Sequence record: PZ171033.1
Source of the DNA: a phage
Length of the DNA stretch: 64,000 nt
Reading direction: 5' to 3' (one strand)
Positions 43,433-53,002 of this stretch are shown here, piece after piece (the stretch's first letter is position 1; each line of letters opens with the position of its first letter). The position numbers and the translations under genes were made by a program. The notes below the pieces were generated by a model that was not told the origin of the DNA, did no database searches, and was given only the letters and a program-made list of their open reading frames with translations.

Positions 43433-45043
43433 TCACACAATGTATGAACGTAGTGGATTAACACTATCTTCTTCTTCCTCATCCCACATTGGGTCACCCT
43501 TGTTATCCACCAAAGTCATACCTGCTTGTGGTTTCCAAGGATTGAGATAACCCAGCATGGAGATAGTATCAATACAGTCATCCTTACCTTTAATCCCATT
43601 AATGGTAGCTAGTTTAATCTGGCCCATGAACAGACCCATAATAGTCGTATCTCTCAACTCTTCTGGGAAGTACATCTTACCAGCTTTGAACCATGGAACT
43701 ACCAGGTTAAAGCGTGACAGTTTAGAGGTTACAGGACGGATGCCTGGCTTACCACCCTCAGAGGATGCAAAGTTAAAGAAGACATTACGGTTAATCATTT
43801 CTTTCTGAAGGAGTGAGATAAATCCATTTTGTTGTCCTGTAATTTCGACACCAACGTTTTGTGGTTGGTATTCCTGAACCAGACGGAAGAGGTCGTCAAA
43901 GTTCTTATCCATAAGCTGACGATTAGCCACACCATCAACCCAGAACCAATCTCCATTAGAACTATAAGCCCAAACTGATATGACACTGTAGTCACTGGTC
44001 TGTTTCTCCGAAGTAGCAAAGTCAGTTGTAATATAATAGTTGTAGCAGGACTTCATCCTTAACAGTTGCTGTCTGCTGTACCATTTAATCTCACTATCCT
44101 GAACAAGGCGTTCATCTTCAGAACTAATACGAAGCATAAGTTCCTGGTAGAAGCCAGCCAGCTTACCAGTCTTAACTGCCATGTCATATTGGGCTTTGAT
44201 GTAGTCGTAGGAGAAACGGTCATCCCATGCACCCTGAAATTCTTCTCTACTACAGGGGAACTTCTCACATACAGGCCATACGTTTACATCCCATGCACCA
44301 GACTCTACTGCTTCAATGATAATGTCTTCCTTATTAAAGGGAGTACCATTGAAGATTACTTTACGACGAGTAGGGTCAAGAGCATGGTTCACACCTTTAT
44401 AAACAGTATCTTTAATAGCTTCCATGCTAGTCTTAGAGTTAGCATCACCATCACTAATCAAGTCATCCAGTACACAGAGTGTTGGACGTTTACCATATAT
44501 CTTCGTACCACGAAGACCTGTCTTAGCACCAAACAACTTAACACCAAGTCGATGTCCTTCTACATTACGGAACTCCAGTAGGTTATCCGTAAAGGTAGCT
44601 TCAGGTATCCATTGCTGAAGGAACTCACTATTCTTGTAACGAAATTCAATGTTCTTACGTGCAGACTTAGCACCGTTATCCATTGAGTCAGATACGTAAA
44701 TCATTCCTTCTACTTTACCCAGGCTAGGTAAGTGACCAAACACTGCCAGAAACAAAGTAAAGTATTCCATGAATACAGCAGTCTTACCTGCACCACGGAA
44801 GCACAGGTTAACTACATACTGGTTCGGACTAATCATCTTATCCAGCATCTTCAGGTGAACTGGAGGTGTTTTGTTGGATTCACCTTCTTTGCCATTAACC
44901 AACTTAATAAAGTTGGCAAAGGTAAGAGCAAACTGACTAGGAACATAGTTAGATGAATTAAGGTGGGAGTAATCCACCTGGTCCAGCCATTCATCTAGTT
45001 CCTGTTTAATTAACTCAGACATCTGTAATGTCCTCATCTGCAC
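43433..45043 (-). CDS. terminase large subunit
   Basis: Walker A FRGAGKTAV, Walker B-like LCVLDDLISD, C-terminal nuclease-type acidic residues; 536 aa. Confidence 0.85.
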   Translation of the reverse strand: MQMRTLQMSELIKQELDEWLDQVDYSHLNSSNYVPSQFALTFANFIKLVNGKEGESNKTPPVHLKMLDKMISPNQYVVNLCFRGAGKTAVFMEYFTLFLAVFGHLPSLGKVEGMIYVSDSMDNGAKSARKNIEFRYKNSEFLQQWIPEATFTDNLLEFRNVEGHRLGVKLFGAKTGLRGTKIYGKRPTLCVLDDLISDGDANSKTSMEAIKDTVYKGVNHALDPTRRKVIFNGTPFNKEDIIIEAVESGAWDVNVWPVCEKFPCSREEFQGAWDDRFSYDYIKAQYDMAVKTGKLAGFYQELMLRISSEDERLVQDSEIKWYSRQQLLRMKSCYNYYITTDFATSEKQTSDYSVISVWAYSSNGDWFWVDGVANRQLMDKNFDDLFRLVQEYQPQNVGVEITGQQNGFISLLQKEMINRNVFFNFASSEGGKPGIRPVTSKLSRFNLVVPWFKAGKMYFPEELRDTTIMGLFMGQIKLATINGIKGKDDCIDTISMLGYLNPWKPQAGMTLVDNKGDPMWDEEEEDSVNPLRSYIV

Positions 45044-45704
45044 GAACTAGTTTAGAACCAGCAACCTCTTTGGTAGGTACACCACTATTGATTGCATTGA
45101 TTTGCTGCTCAGCTAATGCAGCAAGTGTTGCCTTGAGGTCAGTTAATCCAGAGTTCTCTCTCAAGTCCAGATTGATATTTGTTACCTGGTCTTTCGGTTT
45201 AGCTAAGTGAGTAAGGATAGAGTTAGCTGCATCACATCTTACTTTCTCACTCGCTGCTGTAGTCATTAGTTCAACCTGAACGTTGATAGCCTTCTGATAA
45301 TTATCTTGGTTCACAATCCACACTGGAACCAAACTTTGTTCCATGATGAGGTTAACTAGCTTACCCCTGTGGTAAGCAGATACATAAGCACTAATATCTT
45401 TCTCACTGGTTCCTCGTGCTACGAGTTCTGCTTGTCGGTTGGGGAATGTCTTGAAGTAGGCTTCCTTATTTGAGTAGCCCATGTGCTTGTAAGTCACATA
45501 CTGAACTGCATTCATGTAGTCCTGTGTCTTAAACTTACCTTCCTTCATTACACCAGAGTAGGAGATAAAGTTTTCACGGAAGGACTCAGCAACCAGTTGG
45601 TCTTGGGTTATGTTGTTAATCGTGTCTACCAACTCCTGGGTCACACTGTTTTTGAAGTTAGCAGGTAGTGCATTAATAATCTGCTGCTTAGTTAGTTCAC
45701 TCAT
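45015..45704 (-). CDS. putative terminase small subunit / first gene of late operon
   Basis: 229 aa, overlaps terminase large start; call by position. Confidence 0.4.
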   Translation of the reverse strand: MSELTKQQIINALPANFKNSVTQELVDTINNITQDQLVAESFRENFISYSGVMKEGKFKTQDYMNAVQYVTYKHMGYSNKEAYFKTFPNRQAELVARGTSEKDISAYVSAYHRGKLVNLIMEQSLVPVWIVNQDNYQKAINVQVELMTTAASEKVRCDAANSILTHLAKPKDQVTNINLDLRENSGLTDLKATLAALAEQQINAINSGVPTKEVAGSKLVRADEDITDV

Positions 45705-45875
45705 ACTTATCTCGCTACAAAGTTATGTCTATTAAAGAAGATTCTTTTCTTGGGGTGAGTTACCCCTTGAAGAAACGATACCATACAGTTACACTTTAGT
45801 CATGATATAGAAAAAGTTCATGATACTAAATAGTATGTAATGTTCCGATGACCCTATTCCCAAAAGGAGTAACAT

Positions 45876-46166
45876 TTGAGAATCTATATGAGAGTCCATG
45901 ACTCTAAAGATGAATACGCAGAGGTAGACCACACCGAAGCTGGTATTCTTTCAGATGATATTATCATCACACATGATGAAGATACCTATCATGAATTAGC
46001 TGGGATGATGCTTTTAGAGAATCGTCCGGGCATTAACATCCTGGAACCAAGAGAAACTTACTCTTTAGAAAAACGTTTTTCAGCTCTCGTGTTCTTCACA
46101 AAATTACCTCATAGTGTCTCCGTCAGGCGAAGCAAAGACAGTGTTCGGATGACGGTGACGATGTGA
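45876..46166 (+). CDS. early protein, paralog family member 1
   Basis: Shares core IIITHDEDTYHELAGMMLLENRPGINILEP with neighbouring ORFs. Confidence 0.55.
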   Translation: MRIYMRVHDSKDEYAEVDHTEAGILSDDIIITHDEDTYHELAGMMLLENRPGINILEPRETYSLEKRFSALVFFTKLPHSVSVRRSKDSVRMTVTM

Positions 46167-46317
46167 TTAGTCATGCCGCCTAGTAGACAGTGGCGGTACT
46201 CGTAAAGAGTTAATAACTTCTACAGTCAGGGTTGCCCGGCTCCTTTCCTACCTAGTAGGCTAACGATACACATGTATCTAGGGTGATGAACTGGCCCGTG
46301 ATAGAAAACGGTAAGGG

Positions 46318-46357
46318 GTAGAGTCGAGAGGCTCTACCCCATTTCTTTTTTAGGAGG
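46318..46357 (+). terminator. rho-independent terminator
   Basis: 9-bp stem GGGGTAGAG/CTCTACCCC then ATTTCTTTTTT. Confidence 0.7.
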
Positions 46358-46366
46358 TATGCAAAT

Positions 46367-46762
46367 ATGAGCATCTACGCTTTTGATATTGATATTACCG
46401 GTGTACTTCGTAAGCAGGAACCCTACTACCTAGGGGAACCAGAGATGGTAAGTAAGTTCTTATCTAAACATGCAGTCTTCCTACCAGACTGTGAAGAATC
46501 CCATGAGATAGTTGGTTCATTCTTCTTAAGTAACCTGCAAATCAATACACGTATACTTACTGAACCAGTTGTGTATGACCTTACTGAGTATGCAGACTTC
46601 GAAACATTCTTCCCAGGAGTTAGGTTCTATAAAGTACCTGGCTGGGAAATGATTGTTGAACATAACCTCTTTAATAAAACACTTTCCATTTACTTCAGAC
46701 CTATCCCTAAAGGAAGGAAAATCCATCATGAAATTCATACTGACCGCCCCCAGTTTTATTAA
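46367..46762 (+). CDS. early protein, paralog family member 2
   Basis: Core AVFLPDCEESHEIVGSFFLSNLQINTRILTEP; strong RBS AGGAGG; preceded by terminator. Confidence 0.6.
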   Translation: MSIYAFDIDITGVLRKQEPYYLGEPEMVSKFLSKHAVFLPDCEESHEIVGSFFLSNLQINTRILTEPVVYDLTEYADFETFFPGVRFYKVPGWEMIVEHNLFNKTLSIYFRPIPKGRKIHHEIHTDRPQFY

Positions 46763-47042
46763 AGGGGAATCCTTATACACAACAGACTTTACTTTAGAAG
46801 AAGTCATAGACAGCAACCCTCAGCATGTAATTCTGGTTCCTACCCTAGAGGACTACCATGAAGTAAGGGGTCAACTCTTCTTAGCAGGTAATGATCGTAA
46901 GGTTGTGTGTATCATTCCTCCTTCTGTCTATACCAATAGTGGTGCGTATGATGCTCTACCTTTTATGTTGGTATCCGAGGACTACCAATGGGATAGTCGC
47001 TACGAGAATGAGGAATACCGCTACTACTATGTAAGGAAGTAA
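46728..47042 (+). CDS. early protein, paralog family member 3
   Basis: Core HVILVPTLEDYHEVRGQLFLAGNDRKVVCIIPP; internal ATG start chosen over track start 46653. Confidence 0.55.
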   Translation: MKFILTAPSFIKGESLYTTDFTLEEVIDSNPQHVILVPTLEDYHEVRGQLFLAGNDRKVVCIIPPSVYTNSGAYDALPFMLVSEDYQWDSRYENEEYRYYYVRK

Positions 47043-47045
47043 GAT

Positions 47046-47363
47046 ATGCACTTCTATGGTTTGAGCTATCGTAGTACCAACCCCCTTAATCTGGGGGTAG
47101 GTAAATCCCATTGGATGAGAATAAGCACGCCTATGACCATGTACTACGAACAATGTGAAAAAGCGGATGAGTTCATCGGAACCTGTCTATTATTAGGCGT
47201 ACCTATTACCTTTATTAAAATAGATACTTCCATTGAAGTTCCAGAGAATGTAGTTGTATACATCTACTCTTCCTGTGAACCTCTGATAGAAACTACCCTT
47301 ACGGGTAGACTTATTACCCTCTACCCTTCTACCTCATATTTATCTAGCGACGAGAGTCTCTAA
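47046..47363 (+). CDS. early protein, divergent paralog family member 4
   Basis: Same size class and tandem position; weaker core match (EQCEKADEFIGTCLLLG). Confidence 0.45.
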   Translation: MHFYGLSYRSTNPLNLGVGKSHWMRISTPMTMYYEQCEKADEFIGTCLLLGVPITFIKIDTSIEVPENVVVYIYSSCEPLIETTLTGRLITLYPSTSYLSSDESL

Positions 47364-47647
47364 TGGTTATCAGTAAAATTTATCCAGAGCCTAATGAGGA
47401 AAATTACATCCTCCATAAAGAAATAGCTGACCCGAATGCTGATGTACTTATCCTGGTTCCAGATGAACAGTCTCTACATGTGATACAAGGATTACTCTTC
47501 CTATACAATAAGAATTCGGTAGTACATCTACTTGAACCAGAAACACCTATGTCCTGGCAGGGTAGCTTTAGTCCTTGGCATCTTAATACAGACAAGTACA
47601 TCCTTTCATTCGAGGGTAACACTCCCATCTATAAGGAAAGGAACTAA
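47363..47647 (+). CDS. early protein, paralog family member 5
   Basis: Core DVLILVPDEQSLHVIQGLLFLYNKNSVVHLLEP. Confidence 0.55.
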   Translation: MVISKIYPEPNEENYILHKEIADPNADVLILVPDEQSLHVIQGLLFLYNKNSVVHLLEPETPMSWQGSFSPWHLNTDKYILSFEGNTPIYKERN

Positions 47648-47650
47648 AAC

Positions 47651-47989
47651 ATGAACGTTAAGCTCTTGGGAATGAGTGGTACTGACTTACTGCATTATTC
47701 CTCTGTACCAGAAAAAGCAATCATCCATATTATGACCTATGGGAGTTCTACACTAATAATGGAACCAGGAGAGTTAGCAGACTTTGCACAGGGGCATAAA
47801 CTTATTACTAACAGTAATGCAGAGATAGTTATCCTGCAAAACGGTGAGTCAGTCTCCATACCATTGGGAGATTATGCTCATGTGTTTATCAAAGATGCTA
47901 CCGTAAGGAATAGTAGTGGTAACCCTAACCATCCTGACTATTACTCTGGCATAGCACGTATCATCACCAGAACCTCCCCTCCTATTTAA
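47651..47989 (+). CDS. early protein, possible divergent paralog 6
   Basis: Tandem position, similar size; weak core match (ELADFAQGHKLITNSNAEIVIL). Confidence 0.45.
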   Translation: MNVKLLGMSGTDLLHYSSVPEKAIIHIMTYGSSTLIMEPGELADFAQGHKLITNSNAEIVILQNGESVSIPLGDYAHVFIKDATVRNSSGNPNHPDYYSGIARIITRTSPPI

Positions 47990-48148
47990 CTGCTTATAAG
48001 TGAGATAGCTATGATATTTTTGCATGTCAAAATGTTGATAGCTATGTATGGCTACAGTGGTGTGGCTGGGGCTACACCCTTACACTCAACCATCCCCCCC
48101 GGTATGTTGACCGTGTAGCCACTACCCTACCCCACCTTACACGTTACA

Positions 48149-48161
48149 CATGCTCCGCATG
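48149..48161 (+). promoter_or_regulatory. vRNAP-promoter-like hairpin (5-bp stem, 3-nt loop)
   Basis: CATGC-TCC-GCATG; template strand reads GCGGAGC; 44 nt upstream of ORF 48205. Confidence 0.45.
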
Positions 48162-48204
48162 TTATGGACATGTCGTCCTATCATCAACTATTGGAGCTAT
48201 CATC

Positions 48205-48528
48205 ATGACCACTACCGCTACTGTACGTATGACTGCAGGAACTTTACTTGGTACTGTTAACTCAGCTGCTACTACTGTTGCAGATACATTTGGTACAGCA
48301 ACTAAAGCAGTAGGTATGCTTAATTCATATGTAAGTACTATGGCAGAGAAACAAGCCATCCGTACTAAATTAGAAATGCATACCTTTGTTAATAAACTGG
48401 CAGAGGAAACAGCTATGACTGAGACTCTGCGTAAGAAAAGTATCGAGGAATTCTGCAAGGATTCAGAGAACGCTCGTATCTATAACGCAGAATATTCCAA
48501 AGTAATTGACATCCTGACTAAAGACTAA
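48205..48528 (+). CDS. hypothetical early protein
   Basis: ORF with GGAG RBS, downstream of promoter-like hairpin 48149-48161; terminator follows. Confidence 0.5.
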   Translation: MTTTATVRMTAGTLLGTVNSAATTVADTFGTATKAVGMLNSYVSTMAEKQAIRTKLEMHTFVNKLAEETAMTETLRKKSIEEFCKDSENARIYNAEYSKVIDILTKD

Positions 48529-48535
48529 GTCACAT

Positions 48536-48562
48536 AGGAGACTCTTCGGAGTCTCCTGTTTT
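48536..48562 (+). terminator. rho-independent terminator
   Basis: AGGAGACTC-TTCG-GAGTCTCCT then GTTTT. Confidence 0.65.
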
Positions 48563-48637
48563 GAACATTAGATAGATAGTCAAAAGTAGATAACTATCTA
48601 CTTTAAGTTAACTAACTCGCACTATCTTTAAAAGAAA

Positions 48638-48650
48638 GACGCTCCGCGTC
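48638..48650 (+). promoter_or_regulatory. vRNAP-promoter-like hairpin (5-bp stem, 3-nt loop)
   Basis: GACGC-TCC-GCGTC; same GCTCCGC core; upstream of ORF 48762. Confidence 0.45.
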
Positions 48651-48761
48651 TAAAGGATAAGAATGAATCCACTTCTTATCGAAATCTTAAGTCTTTTCTT
48701 GGGTTTAGTCACCGACAGACAAACCCATAAATCAAAAAATCATTTATCTGGAGAGTACAAA

Positions 48762-52987: not shown

Positions 52988-53002
52988 AGCTGCTCCGCAG
53001 CT
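52988..53002 (+). promoter_or_regulatory. vRNAP-promoter-like hairpin (6-bp stem, 3-nt loop)
   Basis: AGCTGC-TCC-GCAGCT; same GCTCCGC core; 34 nt upstream of RNAPII small subunit gene. Confidence 0.45.

What the first reader, a model, noticed from the sequence alone, without database searches (positions are those of the whole stretch)
45876..47989. Tandem array of four to six paralogous small early genes
Six consecutive ORFs of 94-131 aa share a conserved core (hydrophobic strand, P, ...HE[IV].G..FL..N......[IL].EP) that is clear in ORFs 45876, 46367, 46728 and 47363 and weaker in 47046 and 47651. Such diversified paralog arrays at the leading edge of a phage genome are typical of host-takeover or anti-defence gene families, but this family is not one I recognise.
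Basis: seen in the sequence. Interest (0 to 1): 0.7.

Follow-up and report, generated by a model that had tools for sequence, protein, structure and literature searches.

The report
N4 gp70/gp71-like paralog array plus RNA
The six small genes are real, related copies of one protein family found only in N4-like phages, but they lie at the end of the genome that enters the cell last and are split by a conserved structured RNA with a terminator; their function is still unknown.

Summary
The window is a circularly permuted G7C-like (Gamaleyavirus, N4-like) coliphage genome.

**Observation.** It holds. Six tightly packed + strand genes (96, 131, 104, 105, 94 and 112 aa) are all under purifying selection. 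A, B, C and E are clearly homologous. D and F are divergent members, joined through bridging homologues in Klebsiella phage KP8.

**Identity.** A is the orthologue of N4 gp70 and B of N4 gp71. The superfamily is small and was found only in Schitoviridae. It has a one-helix α/β fold with no significant solved-structure match and no conserved catalytic residues.

**Interpretation.** The "early, leading edge" reading is wrong.
- The array ends 72 nt before the right terminal repeat, at the trailing genome end.
- It has no vRNAP hairpin promoter. The three such promoters all lie to its right.
- A conserved σ70-like promoter precedes A.
- The analogous right-end cluster in LUZ7 is transcribed mid-infection.

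**Variation.** Copy number runs from 2 (N4) to 8. The core A-B-C-D is fixed and the distal cassettes vary.

**Unexpected.** The 200-nt A–B gap encodes a structured RNA ending in an intrinsic terminator. It has strong covariation and no Rfam match, and it is conserved across two Schitoviridae subfamilies.

**Function.** Unknown. My best guess is non-enzymatic binding proteins that modulate the host or counter defence, gated by the RNA/terminator.

The parts
45752..45766 (+). Conserved hairpin GGGGT-gagtt-ACCCC directly abutting the candidate -35 element. Function unknown.
   Evidence: The stem is invariant and the loop varies across 15 phages. N4 has the same hairpin, ggggttagcacccc.
45767..45795 (+). 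Candidate sigma-70-like promoter for gene A: TTGAAG-N17-TACACT.
   Evidence: Both hexamers are invariant in 15 phages and substitutions are confined to the spacer. N4 has TTGCAG-N17-TAGACT at the same place. It scores 8 of 12, below the tool's 9-of-12 threshold. This is an inference, not a mapped start site.
45876..46166 (+). Gene A, 96 aa, TTG start: orthologue of N4 gp70 (PHROG 7213).
   Evidence: PHROG 7213 at 3e-43. N4 gp70 at 32% identity, 2.8e-21. Orthologues in KP8, JWAlpha and inbricus at 8e-21 to 3e-15. dN/dS 0.22.
46164..46360 (+). Conserved structured RNA element, either the 3' UTR of A or an sRNA, with about 9 helices and ending in the terminator.
   Evidence: Sequence is nearly invariant although neighbouring genes have dS 0.4-0.9. 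On the alignment, 96.5% of cells are paired against 41-49% in slid controls. 35 of 50 pairs carry compensatory changes against 8-14 in slid controls, and 0 of 500 shuffles reach this. The covariance model finds full-length hits in KP8, inbricus and JWAlpha, which were not in its training set. No Rfam hit at E up to 1.
46315..46350 (+). Intrinsic terminator (11-bp G+C-rich stem, loop GAGA, T-run) sitting 16 nt before the start codon of B.
   Evidence: Found by the terminator scan. The stem covaries in Jgk1, Moo19 and N4. PhAPEC5 and JWAlpha annotators marked a terminator at the same place.
46367..46762 (+). Gene B, 131 aa: orthologue of N4 gp71 (PHROG 9160).
   Evidence: PHROG 9160 at 1.4e-60. 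N4 gp71 at 3e-7. KP8 at 9e-21, JWAlpha gp90 at 3e-8, inbricus at 3e-7.
46728..47042 (+). Gene C, 104 aa (PHROG 11661). Overlaps B by 35 nt.
   Evidence: PHROG 11661 at 3.8e-63. hhalign C-E 3e-8. The BFVD model of the EC1-UPM C orthologue matches the E model at TM 0.79, E 3e-5.
47046..47363 (+). Gene D, 105 aa (PHROG 12099). Divergent member in which the motif His is replaced by Asp.
   Evidence: In register with B at 3e-3 and with F at 1e-3. Ranked third of 286 non-training ORF segments. Bridged by the KP8 proteins. No structure model was made for it.
47363..47647 (+). Gene E, 94 aa (PHROG 16338). The hub of the family. Start overlaps the stop of D (TAATG).
   Evidence: PHROG 16338 at 3.7e-36. 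AF2 model has pLDDT 76.5 and pTM 0.67, with order b-b-b-helix-b-b-b-b.
47651..47989 (+). Gene F, 112 aa (PHROG 12606). Divergent member and the last gene before the terminal repeat.
   Evidence: ABCE profile against F gives 1.4e-4 in register. Its KP8 orthologue hits the ABCE HMM at 5e-5. A model from an F-only alignment (pLDDT 64) has the same strand-helix-strand core, and its top BFVD hits are the same Schitoviridae set as for E.
48062..48463 (.). Equivalent of the direct terminal repeat, marking the physical genome ends. Context, not part of the array.
   Evidence: 96.5% identical over 402 nt to the annotated 403-bp DTR of Mimir124.
48148..48162 (+). First N4-type vRNAP early-promoter hairpin (ACATGC-TCC-GCATGT). 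Two more lie at 48637-48651 and 52988-53002. Context: it marks the true leading end.
   Evidence: These are the only three GCTCCGC hairpins in the 64 kb, and all are on the + strand. The architecture matches the description in PMC4496689.

Best explanation
**What is shown.** This is the right-end accessory module of an N4-like phage.
- An ancestral pair, gp70 (A) and gp71 (B), has been extended by four more copies of the same small fold (C, D, E, F). The fold is acidic, soluble, α/β and has a single helix.
- The family is found only in Schitoviridae.
- Only one glycine is invariant in the window-centred alignment A4, which contains only Gamaleyavirus-type proteins. The 'HE' of the motif is lost in many members. 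The proteins are therefore most likely binding modules rather than enzymes.

**Expression (inferred).** A conserved σ70-like promoter drives A. The transcript continues into a conserved structured RNA that ends in an intrinsic terminator directly in front of B's ribosome-binding site. B to F, which are packed tightly enough for translational coupling, can then be made only by read-through. The RNA/terminator would therefore gate the rest of the array.

**Timing (inferred).** The locus enters the cell last and lacks vRNAP promoters, so it is expressed in the middle or late phase, not early.

**Function (inferred, untested).** Each paralog binds a different host or phage partner to modulate host physiology or counter defence. 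The fixed core (A-D) would serve conserved targets, and the exchangeable distal cassettes (E, E', F, F', G) would track variable ones.
For: **Paralogy**
- Profile comparisons and PHROG cross-hits.
- The window-wide rank test.
- KP8 bridging proteins aligned in register.
- BFVD Foldseek hits that are exclusively Schitoviridae small proteins, including independent models of the C and B families (TM 0.79 and 0.67).

**Narrow distribution.** Only 23 clusters among 1.84 billion representative proteins, all 54-132 aa.

**Not enzymatic**
- Distant A-like members lack the HE of the motif.
- No Pfam, PDB or PADLOC hit.

**Real, constrained and soluble**
- dN/dS 0.16-0.26, pI 4.6-5.9 and only mildly negative or near-zero GRAVY values, consistent with soluble proteins; no transmembrane prediction was run.
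- None of the array orthologues is in the Moo19 virion protein list.

**Position and timing**
- DTR mapping.
- vRNAP hairpins only to the right of the array.
- In N4 the left end enters first (PMC4496689).
- LUZ7's right-end cluster of 29 small genes is transcribed mid-infection (PMC9163698).

**Regulatory layout**
- Promoter conservation.
- Terminator.
- RNA covariation and out-of-training detection.
- The same layout, gp69(-) | gp70-like | ~250-nt gap with terminator | tandem ~105-aa genes, in KP8, JWAlpha and inbricus.

**Cassette variation.**
Against: - No experiment or known homologue points to any function. The fold search gave only generic α/β matches.
- A and B are conserved across two subfamilies and are syntenic with the terminase genes. 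That fits a housekeeping role as well as an accessory one.
- dN/dS of about 0.2 shows no positive selection of the kind expected in an arms race.
- The promoter is a weak consensus match (8 of 12) and has not been mapped. N4 RNAPII or read-through from upstream could transcribe the locus instead.
- The RNA could be a trans-acting sRNA unrelated to the array.
- A position that enters last is a poor place for defences against restriction.
- D has no structural model, and the F model has low confidence.
Confidence: 0.4

Rival explanations
1. Housekeeping role at the genome end. gp70 and gp71, and by extension their paralogs, act in DNA replication, concatemer processing or packaging near the right terminus. 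For example, they might mark or protect the end or cooperate with terminase gp68/gp69.
For: A and B are conserved, in fixed synteny next to gp69/gp68, in Enquatrovirinae and Rothmandenesvirinae. All six genes are under purifying selection. The authors of the LUZ7 study suggested a replication-related role for right-end middle-phase genes (PMC9163698).
Against: LUZ7 lacks the family and the RNA altogether. Copy number varies from 2 to 8 among close relatives, which is unusual for a core function. No nucleic-acid-binding or enzymatic signature was found.
Confidence: 0.25
2. One reading: early host-takeover or anti-defence genes expressed from the leading edge immediately after injection.
For: The array is a diversified small-gene cluster with variable cassettes. 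Gamaleyavirus Bas96 is strongly resistant to restriction-modification by an unknown mechanism (PMC11990801). In the permuted window, and in replicating concatemers, the array lies directly upstream of the early region.
Against: The array lies at the right, trailing end, 72 nt before the right DTR. No vRNAP hairpin promoter precedes it or lies within it. N4 injects the left end first, and injection finishes only after the middle machinery has been made (PMC4496689).
Confidence: 0.1
3. Transcription-switch factors. The proteins bind host RNA polymerase, N4SSB or RNAPII cofactors to tune the middle-to-late switch, and the RNA acts as a processive antiterminator or decoy.
For: The locus sits at the divergent junction with the late operon, with an invariant 170-nt control region. 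N4-like phages use unusual protein cofactors for each polymerase (PMC4496689, PMC7145618). A structured RNA directly upstream of a terminator resembles cis-antitermination layouts.
Against: There is no similarity to any known RNAP-binding protein or to put/nut-type RNAs. Variable cassettes are hard to reconcile with a single conserved target.
Confidence: 0.12
4. Only four genes (A, B, C, E) are paralogs. D and F are unrelated small genes that share a short motif by chance or by convergence.
For: Direct profile P values for D and F are about 1e-3, similar to one out-of-register hit. The F model is low confidence (pLDDT 64) and its TM-scores to family members are only 0.35-0.5. D was not modelled.
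Against: The rank test places both in the top 3 of 286 ORF segments. The KP8 bridging proteins align in register with D, F and ABCE. 12 of the top 14 BFVD hits of the F model are proteins of N4-like (Schitoviridae) phages, most of them also hit by the E model; their position in the right-end array was confirmed only for some.
Confidence: 0.12

Closest known systems
Bacteriophage N4 gp70 and gp71 (YP_950548, YP_950549; PHROGs 7213 and 9160)
   Same: A and B are their orthologues, with the same order, strand and position after gp69. The same ~200-nt structured gap with a terminator lies between them.
   Different: N4 has only these two members, plus an unrelated 42-aa gp72. The window has four further paralogs. 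Neither N4 protein has a described function in the papers searched.
LUZ7 gp87-gp115, a cluster of 29 small ORFan genes upstream of the right terminal repeat (Ceyssens 2010, PMC3715699; Putzeys 2022, PMC9163698)
   Same: Same genomic position (after the gp69-like gene, + strand, just before the right DTR). It is also a tandem array of diversified paralogs (26 pairs at E below 1e-3). Function is unknown, and it is transcribed mid-infection.
   Different: The protein family is different: about 60-70 aa, apparently helical, with no significant HMM match to the gp70/71 superfamily. There is no gp70 orthologue and no hit with the RNA model. The resemblance is analogous, not homologous.
Diversified anti-defence or host-takeover gene clusters at phage genome ends (for example the T7 class I genes including Ocr, and the T5 pre-early region)
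   Same: Small non-structural proteins of unknown or binding function, clustered at a genome terminus, with content that varies between relatives.
   Different: Those clusters are at the end that enters first and are expressed immediately. This array is at the end that enters last and lacks early promoters. No sequence or fold similarity to any known anti-defence protein was found. This comparison rests on my own knowledge of T7 and T5.
Toprim domains (RNase M5, small Toprim protein 2i5r, topoisomerase I, OLD nuclease)
LUZ7 late sRNA candidates sRNA1-3, between orf69 and orf70 (PMC9163698)
   Same: Short non-coding transcripts, under 250 nt, described in an N4-like phage and ending at terminators.
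   Different: They lie elsewhere in the LUZ7 genome, at about 42.6-43.0 kb before the vRNAP gene. The covariance model for the window's RNA finds nothing in LUZ7.

Membership tests
N4 gp70-like proteins (PHROG 7213) | Significant full-length sequence match to the family profile and to N4 gp70 | tested here: met
   Gene A matches PHROG 7213 at 3e-43 over residues 1-96, and N4 gp70 at 2.8e-21.
N4 gp70-like proteins (PHROG 7213) | Synteny: first + strand gene after the divergent gp69/terminase genes | tested here: met
   Same position in N4, G7C, KP8, JWAlpha and inbricus.
N4 gp71-like proteins (PHROG 9160) | Significant match to the family profile and to N4 gp71, and position directly after the terminator | tested here: met
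   Gene B matches PHROG 9160 at 1.4e-60 and N4 gp71 at 3e-7. The KP8 homologue scores 9e-21.
Single gp70/gp71 superfamily comprising all six genes | Profile-profile similarity in register on the core (hydrophobic strand, P/E, helix, G, hydrophobic strand, N, strand, EP) | tested here: met
   For A, B, C and E the P values are 3e-8 to 1e-3, against at least 0.08 for the control family. F against ABCE gives 1.4e-4. D and F are joined through the KP8 bridging proteins.
Single gp70/gp71 superfamily comprising all six genes | Shared three-dimensional fold | tested here: inconclusive
   The E model (pLDDT 76.5) matches independent BFVD models of the C family (TM 0.79) and B family (TM 0.67). The F model has only pLDDT 64 and TM 0.35-0.5 to family members.
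Early gene class of N4-like phages | vRNAP promoter: DNA hairpin with a 5-7 bp stem and a 3-nt loop upstream of the gene | tested here: not met
   The only three such hairpins (GC-TCC-GC) are at 48148, 48637 and 52988. None lies in 45700-48000.
Early gene class of N4-like phages | Location at the left genome end, which is injected first | tested here: not met
   The array ends 72 nt before the right DTR copy. The rule comes from PMC4496689.
Known anti-defence proteins (DNA mimics such as Ocr/ArdA, Acr families and others) | Sequence or fold similarity to a described anti-defence protein | tested here: not met
Known anti-defence proteins (DNA mimics such as Ocr/ArdA, Acr families and others) | Protection of the phage against a defence system | not testable with these tools
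   Requires deletion or complementation and plating assays.
Toprim domain | Conserved Glu after strand 1, a DxD motif, and a four-stranded sheet flanked by several helices | tested here: not met
Rfam RNA families (for the A-B element) | Covariance-model match to any of the 4227 families | tested here: not met
   No relevant hit at E up to 1 in 45600-48700. The single hit is a chance mir-279 match at 0.27 on the other strand, outside the element.
LUZ7 gp87-gp115 right-end ORFan cluster | Sequence homology to the LUZ7 cluster proteins | tested here: not met
   The best HMM hit is C against gp98 at 0.004 in a set of 29 sequences. All others are at 0.18 or above. Only the position and the tandem-paralog character are shared.

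The most novel reading that the evidence does not exclude
The conserved module gp70, structured RNA with terminator, then paralog array is a new riboregulated counter-defence or host-modulation locus of Schitoviridae. An undescribed class of ~200-nt phage RNA, conserved from Escherichia to Pseudomonas and Achromobacter phages, would control read-through into a set of fold-sharing binding proteins. Their interchangeable cassettes would set which hosts or defence systems the phage can overcome, possibly including the unexplained restriction-modification resistance of Gamaleyavirus and N4.
Probability: 0.2. Interest if true: 0.75.

Novelty: new variant of a known kind. Interest (0 to 1): 0.5.

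Why it matters
N4-like phages are widespread and are used as therapy candidates, yet the genes at their right end have never been assigned a role.

- **The proteins.** Six PHROG 'unknown' families collapse into one Schitoviridae-specific superfamily with a fixed core and swappable cassettes. That gives a defined, small set of genes to delete and test for host range, defence evasion or replication.
- **Timing.** Correcting the expression class from early to not-early changes which defence or host processes they could plausibly target.
- **The RNA.** The conserved structured RNA with a terminator is a fresh candidate RNA family with strong comparative support. Its architecture is directly testable: does it gate expression of the array?
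- **The locus.** LUZ7 expanded a different family at the same site. This suggests the right end is a general nursery for accessory genes in this phage family.

Tried and rejected
- **Family libraries.** Pfam, PADLOC and a PDB profile search on all six proteins and the superfamily alignment found nothing.
- **afdb50.** This Foldseek library was unavailable.
- **Word-indexed protein searches.** They returned only close Gamaleyavirus orthologues, none annotated.
- **N4 middle promoter.** I tried a motif recalled from memory (AAGACCTG). It shows no enrichment in the window, so I dropped it.
- **Shared promoter words.** A k-mer scan of the region upstream of A was pure noise. The repeated TCATGATA occurs only locally.
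- **Recent duplication.** There are no DNA-level repeats among the paralogs, so the duplications are old.
- **Rfam.** No family matches the A-B gap. Hammerhead-like 'UGAUGA...GAAA' words are present but no ribozyme model matches.
- **LUZ7 sRNAs.** I asked whether they are the same RNA. They are not: the locus differs and the covariance model finds nothing.
- **Literature.** Searches for N4 gp70/gp71 function, G7C right-end genes, Schitoviridae ncRNA and Gamaleyavirus anti-defence found no functional data.
Full report
**Context.** The region matches 59 phage records at 80-92% identity, nearly all Gamaleyavirus (G7C-like, Schitoviridae) coliphages. Immediately to the left, on the minus strand, lie the large terminase (43433-45043) and the gp69-like gene (45015-45704). 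In relatives the six genes sit at the very end of the record. In Mimir124 a 403-bp direct terminal repeat starts 73 nt after the last gene. That repeat maps to window 48062-48463 at 96.5% identity. The window is therefore a circular permutation, and the array is the last coding block before the right terminus.

**Checking the observation.** All six ORFs exist as described.
- Their orthologues are present, with conserved boundaries, in 13-17 of the 17 phages compared.
- dN/dS is 0.16-0.26 for each, so they are real genes under constraint. All are mildly acidic (pI 4.6-5.9) with only mildly negative or near-zero GRAVY values, consistent with soluble proteins; no transmembrane prediction was run.
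- PHROGs files them in six separate families of unknown function, but cross-hits already link A and C to E's family (3e-4 and 3e-3 against 38,880 families).
- Family-against-family hhalign gives C-E 3e-8, A-E 7e-7, B-C 1e-4, A-B 2e-4, A-C 2e-4 and B-E 1e-3.
- Family G, an unrelated small protein found in the same arrays of other phages, serves as a negative control and never scores better than 0.08.

**D and F.** They are weaker.
- Direct P values are about 1e-3, and one E-F alignment at 2e-3 was out of register. That level is therefore close to noise.
- Three further tests support membership:
  1. An HMM of A+B+C+E, searched against all 290 stop-to-stop segments of the window in six frames, ranks F first and D third among non-training sequences.
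  2. Klebsiella phage KP8 has an F orthologue (7e-17) that also matches the ABCE profile (5e-5) and the D profile (3e-4). A second KP8 protein matches ABCE (1.5e-6) and D (3e-3). All of these are in register.
  3. An AlphaFold model of F built from F-family sequences alone has the same strand-helix-strand core. Its best BFVD matches are the same set of Schitoviridae proteins that the E model finds. This model is low confidence (pLDDT 64).
- I conclude that four members are certain and two are probable.

**What the family is.**
- A is the orthologue of N4 gp70 and B of N4 gp71.
- The E model is moderately confident (pLDDT 76.5, pTM 0.67). It has three N-terminal strands, one helix and four more strands.
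- Foldseek against BFVD finds only uncharacterised small proteins of N4-like phages of Escherichia, Klebsiella, Achromobacter and Pseudomonas, often several per genome.
- A full HMMER scan of 1.84 billion representative proteins finds just 23 clusters, all 54-132 aa.
- In distant A-like members the His-Glu of the motif is not kept. Only the glycine is invariant in alignment A4. This argues against catalysis and for a scaffold or binding role.
- None of the Moo19 orthologues is among the virion proteins listed for that phage.

**Copy number and order.** N4 and inbricus have A-B. G7C has A-B-C-D. The window, Bas96 and SP5M have A-B-C-D-E-F. Others insert G (a ~105-aa HExxH protein) or swap in subtype variants E' and F'. 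Moonfish reaches eight genes. A-B-C-D is constant within Gamaleyavirus and the distal part is a cassette zone. There is no DNA-level repeat among the paralogs, so the duplications are old.

**Timing and position.**
- N4-type early promoters are DNA hairpins with a 3-nt loop. According to the N4 literature they are confined to the left end, which is injected first, and injection is completed only after the middle transcription machinery has been made (PMC4496689).
- The window has exactly three such hairpins (xxxxGC-TCC-GCxxxx) at 48148, 48637 and 52988. All lie to the right of the array.
- Upstream of A there is instead a TTGAAG-N17-TACACT element. Its hexamers are invariant in 15 phages while the spacer varies. 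It recurs in N4 as TTGCAG-N17-TAGACT.
- In the N4-like phage LUZ7, the same genomic slot holds 29 small ORFan genes of unknown function (PMC3715699). These are covered by mid-infection transcripts (PMC9163698).
- The LUZ7 genes are a different family, but they are themselves paralogous.
- The array is therefore best classed as middle or late, not early. This is an inference by position, signals and analogy, not a measurement.

**The element between A and B.**
- The 200-nt gap (46167-46366) is almost invariant across phages whose flanking genes have dS of 0.4-0.9.
- It folds into about nine helices and ends in an 11-bp G+C-rich terminator with a T-run 16 nt before B's start codon.
- A covariance model built from Enquatrovirinae sequences finds full-length matches at the syntenic spot in three phages that were not in the training set: KP8 (55 bits), inbricus (54.5 bits) and JWAlpha (37.5 bits). 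The last two belong to a different subfamily.
- On the resulting alignment 96.5% of cells are paired, against 41-49% when partners are slid. 35 of 50 pairs show compensatory changes, against 8-14 in slid controls. No shuffle out of 500 reaches the observed values. The caveat is that the alignment was fitted to the model.
- Frequent G-U pairs indicate a + strand RNA rather than a DNA structure.
- Unpaired UAAUAAC and CUCC motifs are conserved.
- Rfam has no match.
- There is no room for a promoter between the terminator and B. B-F can therefore be expressed only by read-through, so this RNA/terminator is a likely control point. It could equally be a 3'-UTR-derived sRNA.

**Function.** Nothing found here assigns one.
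- I commit to binding modules that modulate host or defence functions, with the RNA/terminator as a gate, at modest confidence (0.4).
- The main rival (0.25) is a housekeeping role in replication or packaging at the right end. It is favoured by the deep conservation and terminase synteny of A and B, and disfavoured by the cassette variation and by the family's absence from LUZ7.
- Gamaleyavirus Bas96 is notably resistant to restriction-modification by an unknown mechanism (PMC11990801). That is a lead, not evidence.

**Novelty.** The genes are already deposited as hypothetical proteins, and gp70/gp71 similarity was noted by annotators. As far as my searches show, three things are new:
- the unification of six PHROG families into one Schitoviridae-specific superfamily with a core-plus-cassette organisation;
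- the correction of its expression class;
- the conserved structured RNA.

Noticed in passing
window 46164-46360 (+): A ~200-nt structured RNA ending in an intrinsic terminator lies between genes A and B. It is more conserved than the coding flanks, shows strong covariation, is detected by a covariance model in KP8, inbricus and JWAlpha, and has no Rfam match. It is a candidate new phage RNA family.
   Followed up: yes
window 45705-45875: The 170-nt divergent control region between gp69 and gene A is nearly invariant across 15 phages. It holds a GGGGT-loop-ACCCC hairpin abutting a σ70-like promoter and two TCATGATA repeats. The hairpin and both promoter hexamers are also present in N4.
   Followed up: partly
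window 48148-48162, 48637-48651, 52988-53002: Three perfect 6-bp hairpins with loop TCC (GGA on the template strand) sharing a GCTCCGC core. They are the only ones in the window and look like the equivalents of the N4 vRNAP early promoters P1-P3. The first lies inside the terminal repeat.
   Followed up: partly
window 48062-48463: This stretch is the equivalent of the 403-bp direct terminal repeat of Mimir124. The window is therefore a circular permutation with the repeat collapsed to a single copy, and the true genome ends lie here.
   Followed up: yes
L003 4434-4748, L017 3053-3385 and six other loci (not in the window): Many relatives carry a further cassette, family G, between E and F. It is a ~105-aa protein with an invariant HE(L/V)NHF (HExxH, metalloprotease-like) motif and is unrelated to the gp70/71 superfamily. 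It is also present in Klebsiella phage KP8. No Pfam hit.
   Followed up: partly
L020 43699-49346 (LUZ7 gp87-gp115): The 29 small right-end ORFans of LUZ7, described in the literature as lacking any similarity, are themselves a paralog family (26 pairs at blastp E below 1e-3, shared Y..LL..KY.KE...W motif). A second, unrelated tandem expansion has therefore occurred at the same genomic slot.
   Followed up: partly
L017 2498-3051 and 3385-3555 (KP8): Three or four 56-68-aa proteins in the KP8 array share a GNVY...V(I/L)N(I/V)RT...LIG motif. They look like yet another small paralog family within the same locus.
   Followed up: no
window 48005-48045: An AT-rich 18-nt inverted repeat (ATAGCTATGATATTTTTG / CAAAATGTTGATAGCTAT) lies between the last array gene and the start of the terminal repeat. 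It could be a terminator or a signal related to end formation.
   Followed up: no
L006 (OY979416.1, Klebsiella phage vB_Kpl_K57alpha1.2): The deposited annotation over this locus reads DNA polymerase, exonuclease and DNA primase, all flagged as pseudogenes. It does not fit the sequence, which encodes the same A-B-C-D-E-G-F array. The feature table seems to be offset relative to the sequence.
   Followed up: no
P0036 and P0061: Two gene-A homologues are labelled Enterococcus faecium and sit on a 2.76-Mb record. A coliphage gene there is most likely contamination or misassembly.
   Followed up: no
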